Shown here one piece after another: positions 2,827 to 9,153 of a stretch of 32,000 nt of DNA (its first letter is position 1; the number at the start of each line of letters is the position of its first letter). Location of the stretch: the NCBI GenBank assembly GCA_015257795.3, contig CP072208.2:210001-242000 (forward strand), written 5' to 3'. Origin of the DNA: Candidatus Nanogingivalaceae bacterium (lineage in GTDB: Bacteria > Patescibacteriota > Saccharimonadia > Saccharimonadales > Saccharimonadaceae). Under the pieces are notes generated by a model. It saw only the letters and a list, made by a program, of their open reading frames with translations, ran no database searches and was not told the DNA's origin. The position numbers were made by a program, and so were the translations under genes.

Positions 2827-3349
2827 CTATTTGATTAGTTAGAATATAAATAAAAGAGAAGTCTATAAAAAACTATATTATTATATAAAATAATAAAAAG
2901 TCAAATTTGTCAAATAATAGCAAAGCAGGGGGTTAAAACAATAATTTAATAAGCTATAAAAATGATATTTTATCGGTAAATAATCTAAAGTTTTATAAAA
3001 TATCAATAAAGATATTAAACCACGGCAATAAGCAATTTATCCCATATAATAAAAAAAGATACATGTATTAATTCTCTTTTTTATTTTTTGAAATTTTAAT
3101 GCTGGAGATTTGGTAACGAAAATCACAGATAAAAATCTTACGTTAAGAAAAAAGGTATATTAATCTATTAAATTATTAAAAGTAATACATTGTCTGTAGA
3201 GATATAAGAATGTAAAATAATAATTTGAAGATTATGTAAATATATAAATACATAAATACAAATATGGATTAAGTGTTATGATGTATGATGAATACTTAGT
3301 TATCTTATAGTACCTAAGTATTTGTCGTAAAAGATATATTGTGCGACAC

Positions 3350-3377
3350 TTGACATAATTTCTTTATTTGATAAAAT
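3350..3377 (+). promoter_or_regulatory. Sigma70-like promoter for the 78-aa gene (TTGACA-16 nt-TAAAAT)
   Basis: TTGACA at 3350-3355 and TAAAAT at 3372-3377. It lies immediately downstream of the 21-mer box. Confidence 0.5.
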
Positions 3378-3424
3378 GATCATGTAATATAAAATAATTT
3401 TAAATTTAATTAAGGAAAAATTAC

Positions 3425-3661
3425 ATGAATAAAGAAAATTTACTAAACGAAGATAATATTATTTCAGCACTTTCCCGTTTGTCTATTAAAACTCAAGAAT
3501 CGCCAAAAACTGGCAATGTCTATACTACTATAACTTTGCATTTTAAAAATGGTCTTGAAATCCGTTATTTTGTAGATCCTAAAGATAAATTTGGTCTTAA
3601 AGATGCTATTTCTCGAATTTCGCAATCTGAAAAACTAGACAATATCCTAAACGAGGACTAA
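3425..3661 (+). CDS. Hypothetical 78-aa protein with an acidic C-terminal tail, paralog of 8862..9095. It may be a phage ssDNA-binding protein or a regulator, but the function is unproven.
   Basis: A complete ORF with an AAGGA-type RBS. It aligns along its full length with the 77-aa ORF at 8862 (shared NxDNIIS...F KNGLEI.YFVD.KDKFGL.DA...ISQSEKLDNILNED). Confidence 0.6.
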   Translation: MNKENLLNEDNIISALSRLSIKTQESPKTGNVYTTITLHFKNGLEIRYFVDPKDKFGLKDAISRISQSEKLDNILNED

Positions 3662-3748
3662 CAGCTTATGTGAAATTTAAACCGTTAGCCCAAAATCGCA
3701 AACAAAAAGCGAACAAAAAAATAATATCAACGTAAAAAAGGAGTTAAA

Positions 3749-3925
3749 ATGCTTGAGCAACTAGGAGCAATCAACTTCCCTGAAAATTTGAACACTCAAA
3801 TTATCACTGGAATTGAGAGCGCATTCTCAAACGGTTTGACTTTCGTTGCGCCTATTCTTGTAGGTATGGTAGGTATTACTATCGTGCGAAAGGTTATCAA
3901 CCGCGGTAAAAGCGGTCGGGTTTAA
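3749..3925 (+). CDS. Candidate major coat protein (58 aa; g8p-like architecture)
   Basis: My own translation is MLEQLGAINFPENLNTQIITGIESAFSNGLTFVAPILVGMVGITIVRKVINRGKSGRV. It has a polar N-terminus, one hydrophobic helix and a basic DNA-facing C-terminus. AAGGAG RBS at 3738-3743. It is too short to appear in the ORF track. Confidence 0.55.
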   Translation: MLEQLGAINFPENLNTQIITGIESAFSNGLTFVAPILVGMVGITIVRKVINRGKSGRV

Positions 3926-4162
3926 TCCCCTGCTTTCTCCCAATCCTGAGTATGATTTAAAACTACTCATCTATAATATAAATTTAACAATTAAATTAGC
4001 TTAAATTATAACTTAAATTGAAATAAAAGTGATTAGTACTTTATTAGGTTCATTTTTATTTTTTACAAATCCACATCTAGTATAAAAACATCGAAAAAAT
4101 AGTTTTTTATAATCACTTTTTTATATTTTAAACTTAAGCTTATTTAATTAAAGGTAAAAATA

Positions 4163-4318
4163 ATGGTTCAAAACGTATCATCAAATGAAGTTATCGGTAT
4201 AATTTTAGACCTATTTTCTAAAGGTTTTGTTTTTCTATTACCTATCATTGGAGTATTGGCAGGAATTCACCTTTTATATTCAATGATAATGAACGTGCTA
4301 TTTAGAGATAGACTATAG
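4163..4318 (+). CDS. Small single-TM coat-like protein (51 aa), apparent paralog of 3749..3925
   Basis: Translation is MVQNVSSNEVIGIILDLFSKGFVFLLPIIGVLAGIHLLYSMIMNVLFRDRL. It shares the core pattern I..FS.G..F..PI.....GI with the 58-aa protein. The RBS is weak (AAAGG). Confidence 0.45.
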   Translation: MVQNVSSNEVIGIILDLFSKGFVFLLPIIGVLAGIHLLYSMIMNVLFRDRL

Positions 4319-4326
4319 GAGAAAAT

Positions 4327-4464
4327 ATGCAAGATATATATTATTACACCCCTTTGCATAATAAATTTGTAAAATTCGATGATATAACTTGGCTCATTAT
4401 CATAATGCTTACGATTCTAGCATTATATTTTATTAAAAACATGAAAGTTCGCCCTAAAAGGTAG
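4327..4464 (+). CDS. Small single-TM protein (45 aa), candidate minor coat protein (g7p/g9p-like size class)
   Basis: Translation is MQDIYYYTPLHNKFVKFDDITWLIIIMLTILALYFIKNMKVRPKR. AGGAG lies 5-6 nt upstream of the ATG. It is tightly packed, with its stop 3 nt before the next ATG. Confidence 0.45.
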   Translation: MQDIYYYTPLHNKFVKFDDITWLIIIMLTILALYFIKNMKVRPKR

Positions 4465-4467
4465 AGT

Positions 4468-7131: not shown

Positions 7132-7165
7132 CTTAACACACAAAACGCTAATTTAAGGAGAAAGT

Positions 7166-8086
7166 ATGCAAGCATTAAAAAATCAAACTTCAAGGCTTTT
7201 AAAGTCAATGTTTGAAAATAATAAAGAGATTAAGTTTAAAGAGATTTCAAGCTATGCTAAAATTTATCCCGATACTATAAAAATTATTAAGTATCACCGC
7301 CCTATTGTATTTACTAACTTTTCAGATCGTGGTGTTTCCGCTATTCTCACGAACGAAGAAAACGCCGAAGAGCAAGACTATTTACAAAAATCAATCAACC
7401 GCACTAAAACTAAAATTAGCGATTATGTACTATGTAATAATTTCACACATTTTGCTACTTTCACATTTGATCCTAAAAATCCAAAAGTTAAAAACGAAAA
7501 CAACCGCCACGATTTTAAAAAAATGTCTTCCCTGCTTAAAAATTGGCTAAAAACCGAACAATTAAACCACTTTAGACATCATGGCCACAAATTCAAATAT
7601 TTAATAGTCCCCGAACGACACAAGAACGGCGCTTGGCACTTCCACGCCCTATTAGAAAATTACAAAAATGAAACCGAAAATTTTTACACACGAAAAAATA
7701 ATTATATAACAGTATCTGAACTTAAAAGCAAAAAGAAAGATAAAAACCGTAAATTCATCACAAGATATACTTTAGGGCGATCAGAAATAGCTCCTATTCG
7801 TGATAAAACTAAAATGTCTAATTATATTAAAAAATATATCACAAAAGAGCTTATAACAGATAAAAACGCTAAACGCTACTGGTCAAGTCGAAACCTAAAA
7901 CAACCTGAAATAATAGAAAATTTCATAAGTGAATTTCAAAAAATACCTGAACAATTCCTAACCGCAAAACACGATTACCACGATATTTACACAATCCCTT
8001 TAAATTGTTCATATTTCACCTTTTCAAAATACGTAAACAAACTCGAAAATCACTTCAAACGTGAAAAATTGCACATAAAAATTTAA
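7166..8086 (+). CDS. Rolling-circle replication initiator (HUH endonuclease, two-tyrosine superfamily I, phiX gpA/inovirus Rep-like)
   Basis: Motif 1 is FATFTFDP, motif 2 (HUH) is WHFHALLEN and motif 3 is NYIKKYITKE with Tyr at i and i+4. AAGGAG RBS. Confidence 0.7.
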   Translation: MQALKNQTSRLLKSMFENNKEIKFKEISSYAKIYPDTIKIIKYHRPIVFTNFSDRGVSAILTNEENAEEQDYLQKSINRTKTKISDYVLCNNFTHFATFTFDPKNPKVKNENNRHDFKKMSSLLKNWLKTEQLNHFRHHGHKFKYLIVPERHKNGAWHFHALLENYKNETENFYTRKNNYITVSELKSKKKDKNRKFITRYTLGRSEIAPIRDKTKMSNYIKKYITKELITDKNAKRYWSSRNLKQPEIIENFISEFQKIPEQFLTAKHDYHDIYTIPLNCSYFTFSKYVNKLENHFKREKLHIKI

Positions 8087-8120
8087 AAGTTATCATCTTG
8101 ATTTATCAAGTGATCACTCC

Positions 8121-8142
8121 CTATTTCAACTTGTTGAAATAG
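8121..8142 (+). terminator. Hairpin after rep (CTATTTCAAC-TT-GTTGAAATAG), a possible terminator or operator
   Basis: 10-nt arms read directly from the sequence, followed by GTTTATT. It lies just upstream of the DUF2726 gene promoter. Confidence 0.35.
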
Positions 8143-8151
8143 GTTTATTCC

Positions 8152-8159
8152 TGTATAAT
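8152..8159 (+). promoter_or_regulatory. Extended -10 (TGTATAAT), 7 nt before the ATG at 8167, implying a leaderless transcript
   Basis: TGTATAAT at 8152-8159. There is no SD sequence between it and the start codon. Confidence 0.4.
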
Positions 8160-8166
8160 TTAAAAT

Positions 8167-8670
8167 ATGGATATTTTATTATACTTTCTTGCTATTCCTA
8201 TAATTCTTGTAATTATAATTAAAGCTATTGTTTCAGATTCTGGAAATCAAAAAATTTCAACAGTATATAGATATAATCGAAAATATGTTATAATGACCGA
8301 ACGTGAACAAGAATTTTATAAAAAATTAAAATTAATTTGCGGTGATTCAATTTTAATTTTTCCACAAATTCACCTATCAAGTTTATTTTTTCACAATGTA
8401 AAAGGTCAAAATTTTAAACTAGCATTTAGATTTATTAACAGACTTTCAGTAGATTTTGTTTTAGTCGATTCAAGAAATTTTAAAACTCTATTAGCGATTG
8501 AACTTGATGACTCCACACATAACGAAAAAGACAGAATCAAGCGTGATTTAATTGTAAATGATATTTTTAAAAAAGCAAACTTCCCTCTTTTGCGTGTGGG
8601 CTCAGTCAAAATTGATAATGAAAAATTAAAGCAAATGATATTAGAAAATATAAAAAATGGTGTAAAATAA
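8167..8670 (+). CDS. DUF2726-type (PD-(D/E)xK nuclease-like) protein with an N-terminal TM segment
   Basis: N-terminal TM ILLYFLAIPIILVIIIKAIV. Core blocks are EREQEFYKKL, VDFVLVD....LLAIELDDSTH and DRIKRD....F..ANFPLLRV, which match the DUF2726 pattern as I remember it. Confidence 0.6.
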   Translation: MDILLYFLAIPIILVIIIKAIVSDSGNQKISTVYRYNRKYVIMTEREQEFYKKLKLICGDSILIFPQIHLSSLFFHNVKGQNFKLAFRFINRLSVDFVLVDSRNFKTLLAIELDDSTHNEKDRIKRDLIVNDIFKKANFPLLRVGSVKIDNEKLKQMILENIKNGVK

Positions 8671-8746
8671 ACAACATTTTTTATGTAATTTTATGGTATA
8701 ATATTTATATCTAACACTTTTAAAAAGTATATATTTTAACATAAAC

Positions 8747-8775
8747 TTGACAAATGTACAAAAAAGATATATTGT
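8747..8775 (+). promoter_or_regulatory. Putative promoter for the 77-aa gene (TTGACA-17 nt-TATTGT). Its -10 lies inside the 21-mer box.
   Basis: TTGACA at 8747-8752. The box at 8762-8782 overlaps the -10 position. Confidence 0.4.
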
Positions 8776-9153
8776 GCGACACATCTTGTTTTTCTTTTTT
8801 GAGTATGCTAATATGTTTTCGTAAATACGAAAACATAATTTTTTAAGGAGAAAAATCAATTATGCAAGAAAAATTATTAAATCAAGATAATATCATTTCA
8901 ACAGTTGCCCGTGTTGCACTTCGTACACAAAAATCTGAAAAATCTGGAAATTATTTCACTATCCTAACTTTACGTTTTAAAAATGGTTTAGAAATTGATT
9001 ATTTTGTTGATAAAAAAGATAAATTTGGTCTTCTTGACGCTGTTAAATCAATCTCTCAATCTGAAAAACTAGACAATATCCTAAATGAGGACTAACAGCT
9101 TATGTGAAATTTAAACCGTTAGCCCAAACTAGCAAACAAAAAGCGAACAAAAA
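8762..9153 (+). repeat. Right copy of the ~390-bp direct-repeat module
   Basis: See 3329-3719. The offset is 5433 nt for the box and 5434 nt for the tail. Confidence 0.9.
8862..9095 (+). CDS. Hypothetical 77-aa protein, paralog of 3425..3661
   Basis: AAGGAG RBS. It is similar along its full length to the 78-aa ORF, and the last ~13 codons are nearly identical at the nucleotide level. Confidence 0.6.
   Translation: MQEKLLNQDNIISTVARVALRTQKSEKSGNYFTILTLRFKNGLEIDYFVDKKDKFGLLDAVKSISQSEKLDNILNED

What the first reader, a model, noticed from the sequence alone, without database searches (positions are those of the whole stretch)
3329..9153. Phage unit bracketed by two collinear modules, a CTXphi-style arrangement that would allow Rep-driven release without excision
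Two modules (3329-3719 and 8762-9153) share three elements. The first is an identical 21-mer, AAAAGATATATTGTGCGACAC. The second is a paralogous 78/77-aa gene that is clearly diverged at the nucleotide level in its 5' two-thirds. The third is a 97-bp tail that is almost identical. The offsets are 5433 and 5434 nt. The mosaic pattern of a diverged 5' part and a near-identical 3' part suggests two related elements in tandem, with the left one reduced to its terminal module, or recombination or gene conversion confined to the tail. For rolling-circle phages integrated in tandem, as established for CTXphi, Rep can nick at the origin in one copy and terminate at the next. That yields a unit-length hybrid ssDNA circle with no recombinase. 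The 21-mer contains GATAT, which loosely resembles the phiX-type G|ATATT nick context, so it is a candidate nick or termination site. It could equally be an operator: it overlaps the -10 in the right copy and abuts the -35 in the left copy.
Basis: partly seen in the sequence, partly recalled or inferred. Interest (0 to 1): 0.8.

Follow-up and report, generated by a model that had tools for sequence, protein, structure and literature searches.

The report
Filamentous prophage inserted at dif
The two repeated modules are the left and right junctions of a small filamentous phage with no integrase gene that has inserted into the chromosome-dimer-resolution site (dif) of an oral Saccharibacteria bacterium, beside a resident relic of a related phage; the arrangement is a known kind, seen here in a new bacterial phylum.

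Summary
The exact 21-mer (3329, 8762), the 78/77-aa paralogs and the 97-nt tail with 3 mismatches are all as described.

The 21-mer is not a Rep nick site or a dedicated operator. It is the core of the host dif site, ATGTCGTAAAA|GATATA|TTGTGCGACRT.
- A 24-nt version is exact, once per contig, in at least 120 Patescibacteria species.
- It sits where gene orientation converges in 67 of 69 loci.

Comparing empty and occupied sites places the crossover inside the 21-mer. The 5433-nt unit encodes coat-like proteins, a Zot-type ATPase and an HUH Rep, but no integrase. It is therefore an IMEX-type inovirus with a TLC/VGJ-like attP, not a CTX-like one.

The left module travels with the phage: 99.7-99.8% identity between two lysogens whose host flanks are 97% identical. 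The right module is what non-lysogens already carry, probably a relic of an earlier phage.

The hybrids predicted by Rep-driven release were not seen: 0 of about 16 phage copies. The conserved tail ends in a host motif specific to the dif region, and its role is unknown.

Verdict: a new member of a known kind, moderately interesting, with the Patescibacteria dif site as a by-product.

The parts
2813..2827 (+). Host motif of the dif region, GTTCGCTTTTTGTTC. This is the left boundary of the 'dif island', 35 nt after the ftsQ-like stop codon.
   Evidence: The motif occurs at -500..-300 from dif in 25 species, always on the + strand. There are only three copies in the window.
3322..3349 (+). attL, a complete host dif site: TTGTCGTAAAA|GATATA|TTGTGCGACAC (11+6+11 dyad).
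   Evidence: It is the same as attB in empty sites (L148, L155, L002, L009). The 24-mer is exact in at least 120 Patescibacteria species.
3350..3377 (+). Promoter-like site (TTGACA, 16 nt spacer, TAAAAT, with TG before the -10) of the phage-borne cassette gene. It abuts the right arm of dif.
   Evidence: 11 of 12 matches. It is a consensus match only.
3425..3661 (+). Phage-borne cassette gene, 78 aa (type A 5' part, type B 3' part). It is the first gene after attP, in the position of the ssDNA-binding protein gpV of Ff phages. Function unknown.
3655..3691 (+). Tail hairpin: GGACTAACAG, a 17-nt loop CTTATGTGAAATTTAAA, then CCGTTAGCCC. It overlaps the stop codon.
   Evidence: It is conserved in nearly all modules. 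The stem is perfect in some relatives (L006_R, z=-3.6).
3698..3719 (+). Two tandem 11-nt repeats, GCAAACAAAAA GCGAACAAAAA (the 'box'). They are an inverted copy of the host dif-island motif. Homology with the resident module ends here.
3749..4464 (+). Three small hydrophobic ORFs (58, 51 and 45 aa). They are coat-protein-like: a membrane-spanning segment followed by a basic C-terminus.
   Evidence: read from the sequence. No family hits.
4468..6019 (+). A 417-aa protein with a signal peptide and a Gly/Ser-rich linker (adsorption-protein-like), and a 97-aa membrane protein.
   Evidence: Position and composition only.
6029..6793 (+). Zot/pI-type assembly ATPase. The ORF runs through a strong GC-rich hairpin at 6743-6787.
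   Evidence: PF05707, 21.1 bits against a cut-off of 20.3; phrog_197, 5e-7; hairpin z=-4.9.
7087..7161 (+). Conserved intergenic element just upstream of rep: a GC-rich hairpin with compensatory changes among relatives, plus the invariant CTTGTCAAgAgCCACACTTAAC. It is a single-copy candidate for the replication origin or packaging signal.
7166..8086 (+). Rolling-circle Rep of the HUH class (motifs WHFHALL and YIKKY).
   Evidence: PF23343, 2e-11; phrog_3419, 2e-15; motifs read from the translation.
8167..8670 (+). DUF2726 accessory gene. Other phage variants carry a 123-aa membrane protein in this position.
8755..8782 (+). attR, an attP-like site: a degenerate phage arm TGTACAAAAAA, then GATATA and TTGTGCGACAC. 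It contains the right 21-mer (8762-8782).
   Evidence: The alignment of empty sites L148 and L155 with the window resumes exactly at 8762.
8862..9095 (+). Resident cassette gene, 77 aa, type B. The same protein is found as the single copy in non-lysogens.
   Evidence: L147, L148, L151, L155.
9089..9153 (+). Resident tail: the hairpin and the two 11-nt repeats.
9322..9717 (+). A 131-aa ORF with two membrane-spanning segments, right of the resident module. It is homologous (about 75% at the DNA level) to the 123-aa accessory gene of other phage variants, so it is probably also a phage relic.

Best explanation
Window 3333-8765 is a roughly 5.4-kb filamentous (inovirus-type) prophage with no recombinase gene of its own. 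It has integrated by site-specific recombination into the host chromosome's dif site, which makes it an IMEX (integrative mobile element exploiting Xer).

Steps that are shown:
1. The phage attP shares the 6-bp central region GATATA and the right arm TTGTGCGAC with dif, and has a degenerate left arm.
2. Recombination with attB therefore leaves a complete dif at the left end (attL, 3322-3349) and an attP-like site at the right end (attR, 8755-8782).
3. Directly after attP the phage carries a small cassette: promoter, 78-aa gene, hairpin and two 11-nt repeats.
4. The host lineage already has a homologous cassette directly right of its dif.
5. Integration places the two cassettes 5.4 kb apart as collinear modules. 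The left one is phage-borne and the right one is resident.
6. Homologous recombination between the two cassettes occasionally makes mosaics.

Steps that are inferred:
- The enzyme is the host's Xer-family recombinase.
- The resident cassette, and the 131-aa ORF beside it, are relics of earlier phages of this kind.
- The prophage leaves by Xer recombination of attL with attR, followed by normal rolling-circle replication. This is why the phage keeps its own cassette.
For: Phage identity:
- Zot/pI ATPase, G2P-family HUH Rep and coat-like ORFs are present. No recombinase family matched any of the ten unit ORFs scanned, even at E<=0.1.
- A circular 5378-nt relative (L025, 76-nt terminal overlap) carries one core and one tail.

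Crossover inside the 21-mer:
- Empty site L002 matches lysogen L001 at 99.8% up to position 7920, and at 100% from position 7904 onward. The 17-nt overlap lies inside the 21-mer.
- L009 against L010 gives the same result.
- For the window's own host type, empty sites L148 and L155 re-align starting exactly at window 8762.
- Phage arms vary (AAAAAA, ATACAA, AAACAA, AGCCAC and others) right up to the G of GATATA.

The site is dif:
- GTCGTAAAAGATATATTGTRCGAC is exact, once per contig, in at least 120 species across Saccharibacteria, Paceibacteria, Nomurabacteria, Yonathbacteria and Campbellbacteria, with unrelated flanks.
- It has an 11-6-11 dyad.
- In 67 of 69 loci long ORFs converge on it, and GC skew is higher on the left than the right in 57 of 69 (p=4e-8).

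Left module is phage-borne, right module is resident:
- Window against L013: host flanks 96.9% and 96.8%, left module 99.7%, backbone 99.8%, right module of a different type.
- Non-lysogens carry a single module.

Resident module as a relic:
- Only 1 of 120 species' dif loci has it.
- Remote homologs head inovirus-like gene arrays immediately right of a full dif (L157, L158).
- The neighbouring 131-aa ORF has a phage homolog.

The phage keeps its own cassette:
- Phages with the ..AAAAAA arm carry type A in 11 of 11 copies. Phages with the ..ATACAA arm carry type B in 5 of 5. This holds whatever the resident type is.

Stacking at dif:
- A 1-kb mini-element bounded by two cores sits in L152 and L024.
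Against: - No Xer gene was identified. There is none in the window, and a motif search of all held loci found no convincing one. The catalyst is therefore inferred from the nature of the site.
- The phage arm is so degenerate that it is unclear how a second recombinase monomer would bind. TLCphi needs a helper protein, XafT; no equivalent was identified here.
- Excision has not been observed. The circular contig L025 could in principle derive from a tandem array.
- The strong conservation of the tail (hairpin plus repeats) in both phage and resident copies is not explained by this model.
Confidence: 0.85

Rival explanations
1. The two modules each contain a Rep nick or termination site, in the 21-mer or, in a revised form, in the tail hairpin and repeats. 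Rep initiates in the left module and terminates in the right one. This releases a unit-length hybrid ssDNA circle without excision, as with CTXphi-RS1 arrays.
For: - The tail is conserved in every module, even where the ORF is unrelated (L001_L).
- Its anatomy is a hairpin followed by two tandem repeats containing GAACAA. This resembles the Ff gpII origin, which has a nick palindrome followed by repeats containing GGAACAA (from memory), and the Rep here belongs to the G2P family.
- Homology between the phage and the chromosome ends exactly after the repeats.
- The geometry would yield a viable 5434-nt circle that carries attR as its attP.
Against: - The 21-mer is the host dif, present in at least 120 species without any phage.
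- The repeats are a host motif specific to the dif region, found on both sides of dif in species that lack the module.
- The predicted hybrids (phage arm plus resident module type) were seen in 0 of about 16 phage copies, including one circle.
- The one mosaic seen (window and L013 phage) has its breakpoint inside the gene, upstream of the hairpin. That fits homologous recombination, not a fixed nick site.
- L013's resident module lacks the hairpin.
- A better-placed single-copy origin candidate, with compensatory base changes, lies just upstream of rep.
Confidence: 0.1
2. The resident 77-aa cassette is a genuine host gene next to dif. The phage captured a copy of it, and integration is Campbell-type homologous recombination through this shared module rather than Xer recombination.
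For: - The resident gene is intact and extremely common; the exact protein is in 1085 blocks of the collection.
- It has its own promoter-like site and is present in all non-lysogens of the lineage.
- 300-400 nt of 77-95% homology would permit RecA-mediated crossover, and one such mosaic exists.
Against: - In matched pairs of empty and occupied sites the junction lies inside the dif core, not in the gene.
- Lysogens exist whose left and right modules are unrelated in the ORF (L001, L013), leaving only the core and the tail as shared sequence.
- The gene family has only 33 clusters at 50% identity among 1.84 billion proteins. Its remote members are the first gene of inovirus-like arrays at dif.
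- The gene is absent from 119 of 120 other dif loci.
Confidence: 0.1
3. The phage's HUH Rep itself catalyses integration, by nicking and joining at GATAT in both attP and the chromosome, in the manner of AAV Rep or rolling-circle transposases.
For: - The core contains G|ATAT, which loosely resembles the phiX and pC194 nick context CTTG|ATA (from memory).
- The phage has no recombinase, and Rep has two tyrosines (YIKKY).
Against: - The target is a 28-bp 11-6-11 dyad at the terminus, conserved across a whole phylum. This is the signature of a tyrosine-recombinase (Xer) site.
- The phage retains exactly one arm plus the 6-bp central region, as known IMEX attP sites do.
- Unrelated elements use the same core, including a 1-kb element in L152 that is far too small to carry a rep gene of this size and environmental contigs with no similarity to this phage.
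Confidence: 0.03

Closest known systems
TLCphi and VGJphi-type IMEXs of Vibrio cholerae (integrative mobile elements exploiting Xer; double-stranded attP)
   Same: - A filamentous phage or satellite with no integrase, inserted at the host dif.
- attP is a single double-stranded dif-like site. One arm and the central region are conserved and the other arm is degenerate (as in TLCphi).
- Integration regenerates one full dif and one attP-like site, which allows further elements to stack.
   Different: - The host is a Patescibacteria (Saccharibacteria) organism with a different dif sequence.
- Whether one or two Xer proteins act is unknown.
- No XafT-like activator (DUF3653) was recognised.
- The phage also carries a cassette homologous to the host's right flank of dif, ending in a host motif of the dif region.
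CTXphi with RS1 or tandem CTX arrays (RstA-driven rolling-circle production of hybrid genomes from the chromosome)
   Same: - An inovirus at dif.
- A shorter related element lies directly downstream.
- The geometry could in principle allow replication from one origin to the next.
   Different: - No pair of inverted dif-like sites that would fold in the ssDNA.
- The downstream element has no rep gene or regulatory genes.
- Hybrid genomes were not observed.
- Both junctions retain the central region and one arm, so excision is not blocked in principle.
Ff (M13/f1/fd) genome plan
   Same: - A G2P-family Rep, a small gene in the gpV position, small coat genes, a large adsorption-type protein, a pI/Zot ATPase, and a genome of 5-6 kb.
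   Different: - No secretin gene.
- The gene order is rotated, and accessory genes differ (DUF2726 or a 123-aa membrane protein).
- This phage is lysogenic at dif.
- The small gene has no detectable similarity to gpV.
Acinetobacter pdif modules (cassettes bounded by Xer sites)
   Same: A small gene cassette associated with a Xer site, occurring in interchangeable types.
   Different: Only one Xer-like site bounds the cassette. The other boundary is a non-Xer motif.

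Membership tests
Inovirus-type filamentous phage (Tubulavirales) | pI/Zot-type morphogenesis ATPase | tested here: met
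   PF05707 at 21.1 bits (cut-off 20.3) and phrog_197 at 5e-7 for ORF 6029-6793. The Pfam score is marginal, but the PHROG match and the gene context support it.
Inovirus-type filamentous phage (Tubulavirales) | Rolling-circle HUH Rep | tested here: met
   PF23343 REP_ORF2-G2P at 2e-11 and phrog_3419 at 2e-15. Motifs WHFHALL and YIKKY are read from the translation.
Inovirus-type filamentous phage (Tubulavirales) | Small circular genome with small hydrophobic coat proteins; ssDNA virion | tested here: inconclusive
   A circular 5378-nt relative exists (L025). The 58-, 51- and 45-aa ORFs have a membrane-spanning segment and a basic tail but hit no family. ssDNA and virions cannot be tested here.
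IMEX (integrative mobile element exploiting Xer) | Integrated at the host chromosomal dif site | tested here: met
   Empty against occupied sites. The site is conserved in at least 120 species, once per contig, at the point where gene orientation converges and GC skew switches.
IMEX (integrative mobile element exploiting Xer) | No self-encoded recombinase | tested here: met
   No integrase, resolvase or transposase family matched any of the ten unit ORFs scanned (3425-8670) at E<=0.1. PHROGs gave none either (which scanned the same ORFs except the 45-aa one, plus the resident 77-aa gene).
IMEX (integrative mobile element exploiting Xer) | attP mimics dif (arm(s) plus central region) | tested here: met
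   The central GATATA and the right arm TTGTGCGAC are identical. The left arm is degenerate.
IMEX (integrative mobile element exploiting Xer) | Recombination catalysed by host XerC/D (or a single Xer) | not testable with these tools
   No xer gene lies in the window or in the held loci. Genetics or biochemistry is needed.
CTXphi-type IMEX and tandem-dependent release | attP formed by two inverted dif-like sites folded in (+)ssDNA | tested here: not met
   The circular relative has a single core, and there is no second, inverted dif-like site in the unit.
CTXphi-type IMEX and tandem-dependent release | Progeny genomes are hybrids of the prophage and the downstream element | tested here: not met
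   The left-module type follows the phage arm lineage in 16 of 16 copies, not the resident type. The test is indirect, because it samples integrated copies and one circle, not virions.
Bacterial dif site | 28-bp site of two about 11-bp inverted arms around a 6-bp centre, single copy, at the terminus | tested here: met
   The arms are 9 of 11 complementary in the consensus. There is one match per contig. ORFs converge in 67 of 69 loci and the skew switch has p=4e-8.

The most novel reading that the evidence does not exclude
The cassette is more than a relic. Under this reading the phage carries a portable copy of the host's right flank of dif, consisting of a small gene, a hairpin and the host motif of the dif island (GAAC-N7-GAAC repeats). 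The tail would then be a second functional site shared by phage and chromosome. It could be a Rep origin or terminator that allows CTXphi-like replicative release and cassette exchange. Alternatively it could be an accessory site for a host factor that controls Xer recombination at a Patescibacteria 'dif island'. The resident copy might give type-specific immunity: left and right promoter types differ in 13 of 14 lysogens.
Probability: 0.15. Interest if true: 0.75.

Novelty: new member of a known kind. Interest (0 to 1): 0.5.

Why it matters
The result turns an intriguing repeat into a defined system.
- It is an inovirus with no integrase gene that uses the chromosome-dimer-resolution site of Saccharibacteria. 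This extends the IMEX lifestyle, known from Vibrio, Xanthomonas, Yersinia and Neisseria, to the Candidate Phyla Radiation.
- As a by-product it gives a candidate dif site for Patescibacteria. A 24-nt stretch is identical across several classes and marks the replication terminus. That is useful for replication-rate estimates, for orienting assemblies, and as a near-universal landing site for genetic tools in organisms that are very hard to manipulate.
- No paper in the searchable library contains this sequence.
- The polymorphism between empty and occupied sites, and the interchangeable cassette types, offer a natural system for studying phage-host dynamics in human oral TM7.

Tried and rejected
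- XerD-like arm in the tail. TTATGTGAAAT in the hairpin loop looks like the proteobacterial XerD arm. I rejected it because the pattern is not rarer than chance (3 found against about 1 expected), the real dif of this phylum is different, and the tail contains no dif-like site.
- Rfam on 2700-9800 gave nothing relevant.
- Gene conversion confined to the tail as a general rule. Within-locus tail identity is not higher than between-locus identity. In addition, the same phage tail is present in L013, whose resident module lacks it.
- Tail hairpin as an intrinsic terminator. There is no T-run after it.
- A xer gene next to dif, as with XerS or XerH. None was found.
- Literature. Nothing was found on a Patescibacteria dif site or on Xer in TM7. 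Roux 2019 (PMC6813254) lists the CPR among inovirus hosts, and Shaiber 2020 (PMC7739484) reports TM7 prophages, including one with a Zot gene. Neither describes this site.

Full report
**1. Observation.**
The 21-mer AAAAGATATATTGTGCGACAC occurs exactly at 3329 and 8762 and nowhere else in the window, even with 3 mismatches allowed. None are expected by chance. Downstream of each copy lies a small ORF: 3425-3661 (78 aa) and 8862-9095 (77 aa). The two proteins are 68% identical, and the 5' parts of the genes are 70.8% identical as DNA. They are followed by a 97-nt stretch, 3623-3719 and 9057-9153, with only 3 mismatches. After that stretch similarity collapses. Offsets are 5433 and 5434. The description is correct.

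**2. What lies between the modules.**
The bracketed genes are, in order:
- three small hydrophobic ORFs (58, 51 and 45 aa);
- a 417-aa protein with a signal peptide and a Gly/Ser-rich linker;
- a 97-aa membrane protein;
- a Zot/pI-type ATPase (PF05707, phrog_197);
- an 88-aa ORF;
- a G2P-family HUH Rep (PF23343 at 2e-11, phrog_3419 at 2e-15, motifs WHFHALL and YIKKY);
- a DUF2726 protein.

No ORF of the unit matches a recombinase family. This is an inovirus-type unit.

The flanks are host genes: ftsW-murG-ftsQ on the + strand to the left, and DUF3048, an ExoIII-type nuclease, SmpB, Pth and Der on the - strand to the right. Homologs of the small gene are named Candidatus Saccharimonas.

**3. 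Empty and occupied sites.**
I looked up the contigs that encode homologs of the small protein. This gave many loci with the same host flanks.
- Some carry the phage and two modules: L001, L003, L005, L006, L008, L010, L149, L150, L154, L156.
- Others carry a single module and no phage: L002, L004, L009, L011, L147, L148, L151, L155.

The matched comparisons place the junction:
- L002 (empty) matches L001 (lysogen) at 99.8% up to L002 position 7920, and at 100% from position 7904. The 17-nt overlap is AAGATATATTGTGCGAC, inside the 21-mer.
- L009 against L010 behaves the same way.
- For the window's own host type, L148 and L155 (empty) align with the window's left flank. They then resume exactly at window 8762, the first base of the right 21-mer.

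So the 21-mers are attL and attR, and the insertion is 5433 nt.

**4. The attachment site is the host dif.**
In all attB and attL copies the sequence left of the core is (T/A)TGTCGTAAAA, whatever the further flank. In attR and attP it is a variable phage arm (AAAAAA, ATACAA, AAACAA, AGCCAC, CTACTT and others). Identity starts at the G of GATATA. The host site reads ATGTCGTAAAA|GATATA|TTGTGCGACRT, which is two 11-nt arms, 9 of 11 complementary, around a 6-nt centre.

These came from Saccharibacteria, Paceibacteria, Nomurabacteria, Yonathbacteria, Campbellbacteria and Minisyncoccia. Each had one exact match and unrelated flanks.

I oriented every locus on the site and took the 69 loci with at least 1.5 kb on each side:
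- long ORFs lie mostly on the + strand to the left and mostly on the - strand to the right in 67 of 69;
- GC skew is higher on the left than on the right in 57 of 69 (p=4e-8).

A single-copy 28-bp dyad, conserved across a phylum and fixed in orientation at the point where genes and skew converge, is what defines a dif site. In at least 40 species it lies about 400 nt downstream of murG-ftsQ. No paper in the library contains the sequence.

**5. Type of element.**
The element is an inovirus without a recombinase, inserted at dif, with an attP that mimics dif. That makes it an IMEX. A circular relative (L025, 5454 nt with a 76-nt terminal overlap inside rep) has one core and one tail. The unit contains no second, inverted dif-like site.

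The attP is therefore a plain double-stranded site with one good arm plus the whole central region. This is the TLCphi/VGJphi anatomy, not the folded-ssDNA attP of CTXphi (the comparison rests on established knowledge of those phages). After integration attL is a complete dif, so the host keeps its site, and attR is attP-like. Elements can therefore stack: L152 and L024 carry an additional 1-kb element bounded by two cores. That Xer is the catalyst is inferred; no xer gene is in the held sequence.

**6. Which module belongs to whom.**
The window and L013 carry the same phage in different strains:

| Segment | Identity |
|---|---|
| Host left flank | 96.9% |
| Left module | 99.7% |
| Phage backbone | 99.8% |
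| Host right flank | 96.8% |

The right module is of another type altogether in L013: a type C promoter, an unrelated ORF and no hairpin. The left module therefore travels with the phage, and the right module belongs to the chromosome.

The resident module is confined to this Saccharimonas lineage; 1 of 120 dif loci has it. It lies exactly where IMEX DNA lands. It is followed in the window by a 131-aa ORF homologous to an accessory gene of other phage variants. The family of the small protein has only 33 clusters at 50% identity among 1.84 billion proteins. The two remote members I could place are each the first gene of an inovirus-like array directly right of a full dif (L157, L158). I read the resident module as a phage relic, not an old host gene, with roughly 75% confidence.

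**7. Test of the Rep-driven hybrid model.**
If Rep started in the left module and stopped in the right one, progeny would carry the phage arm joined to the resident cassette. When they next lysogenised, that cassette would appear as the left module.

- arm ..AAAAAA carries type A in 11 of 11 copies;
- arm ..ATACAA carries type B in 5 of 5 copies, including the circle.

The resident types in the same loci are mostly different. No hybrid was seen. Some copies may be repeat samples of the same strain, and virions were not sampled, so the test is indirect.

The window/L013 phage is itself a mosaic. Its 5' two-thirds is type A (95% to the resident module of L009). From about 36 nt before the stop codon onward it is type B and contiguous in similarity with L008-type phages. 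This is the product expected from homologous recombination between a phage module and a resident module, with the breakpoint inside the gene and not at a fixed site. Across 14 lysogens, tail identity between left and right copies of the same locus (83.4%) is not higher than between loci (81.5%, p=0.19). The near-identity in the window is therefore not a general homogenisation.

**8. The tail.**
It consists of three parts:
- the last five codons;
- a hairpin, GGACTAACAG, a 17-nt loop, then CyGTTAGyCC, which is perfect in some copies (z=-3.6) but has two A-C mismatches on the + strand in the window;
- two tandem 11-nt repeats, GCAAACAAAAA GCGAACAAAAA.

It is conserved in all modules, even with an unrelated ORF.

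The repeats turned out to be an inverted copy of a host motif, GTTC-N2-3-WTTTTGTTY, that is almost exclusive to the dif neighbourhood. In 885 kb of dif loci there are 47 copies. Of these, 25 lie at -500..-300 and 21 at +200..+1000, nearly all on the + strand, and only one lies elsewhere. The window has one such copy at 2813-2827. Fifteen species have both copies, which bound a 600-780-nt 'dif island' with further conserved blocks. The phage variant of the motif follows the host variant.

So the phage's attP region mimics not only dif but also a boundary motif of the dif region. What binds the motif is unknown. This weakens the idea that the tail is a phage-specific Rep origin, without excluding it.

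A rival origin candidate is the single-copy element at 7087-7161, just upstream of rep. It is more conserved than the flanking genes, and its hairpin shows compensatory changes among relatives (GTTGCCCC/GGGGCAAC, GTTCCCGC/GCGGGAAC and CCCCGC/GCGGGG).

**9. Verdict.**
The repeat is real and is explained. The 21-mers are the junctions of a dif-integrated inovirus of the IMEX kind. The paralogous genes and tails are the phage's own attP-adjacent cassette and a resident relic of the same kind of cassette. The CTXphi-style mechanism of release without a recombinase is not needed and finds no support in the sampled genomes, though only experiments can exclude it.

The system is a new member of a known kind in a phylum where it had not been described. 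The Patescibacteria dif site and its flanking motif are useful side results.

Noticed in passing
window 2813-2827 (+), 3700-3714 (-), 9134-9148 (-); loci L027-L146: A 15-nt motif, GTTC-N2-3-WTTTTGTTY, is almost exclusive to the neighbourhood of dif in Saccharibacteria. Of 47 copies in 885 kb, 46 lie at about -400 or about +270 from dif, nearly all on the + strand. The two copies bound a 600-780-nt 'dif island' that has further conserved blocks left of dif. The phage and resident tails carry the motif inverted.
   Followed up: partly
L152 6919-7939; L024 5450-6469: A roughly 1.0-kb element bounded by two dif cores (a full dif on the left, a degenerate arm plus core on the right). In L152 it carries a 99-aa ORF on the minus strand and lies between dif and the resident module. 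It looks like a second, tiny IMEX-like element using the same site.
   Followed up: no
L027 1452-4493 (-) and 36 other dif loci: In 37 of about 120 Patescibacteria loci, an ORF family found within 4 kb to the right of dif encodes a protein of about 1000 aa: a TrwB/VirD4/HerA-FtsK-superfamily ATPase (PF10412, PF01935).
   Followed up: partly
window 9322-9717 (+): A 131-aa ORF with two membrane-spanning segments lies between the resident module and DUF3048. It is about 75% identical at the DNA level to the 123-aa accessory gene that sits between rep and attP in other phage variants (L006, L008, L010, L018). It is probably another phage relic.
   Followed up: partly
window 7087-7161 (+): An intergenic GC-rich hairpin upstream of rep shows compensatory base changes among phage relatives and has an invariant downstream block, CTTGTCAAgAgCCACACTTAAC. 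It is a candidate replication origin or packaging signal.
   Followed up: partly
window 6743-6787 (+): A very stable GC-rich hairpin (DNA fold -19 kcal/mol, z=-4.9) lies inside the 3' end of the Zot ORF. In relatives the ORF is 246 aa against 254 aa here, so it probably stops before the hairpin (not checked directly).
   Followed up: no
window 8812-8837 (+): A terminator-like hairpin followed by a T-run sits in the leader of the type B resident gene, between its promoter-like site and its ribosome-binding site. It may be an attenuator.
   Followed up: no
L159, L161, L165, L166, L167, L171, L174, L177: Soil and other environmental contigs carry a degenerate arm joined to the same dif core. One (L159) lies next to a Rep only 35% identical to this one. 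Other, unrelated elements seem to exploit the same Patescibacteria dif.
   Followed up: no
L175 (contig ERZ773018.4, 223 kb): The gene order is DUF2726, phage arm plus core, type A module, then coat genes, inside a long chromosomal contig. This suggests tandem prophage copies, but only 1.3 kb of the contig is held.
   Followed up: no
14 lysogen loci: Left and right modules have different promoter types in 13 of 14 lysogens, against about 4.6 same-type pairs expected. This may hint at type-specific exclusion or at instability of same-type pairs. The samples are not independent.
   Followed up: no
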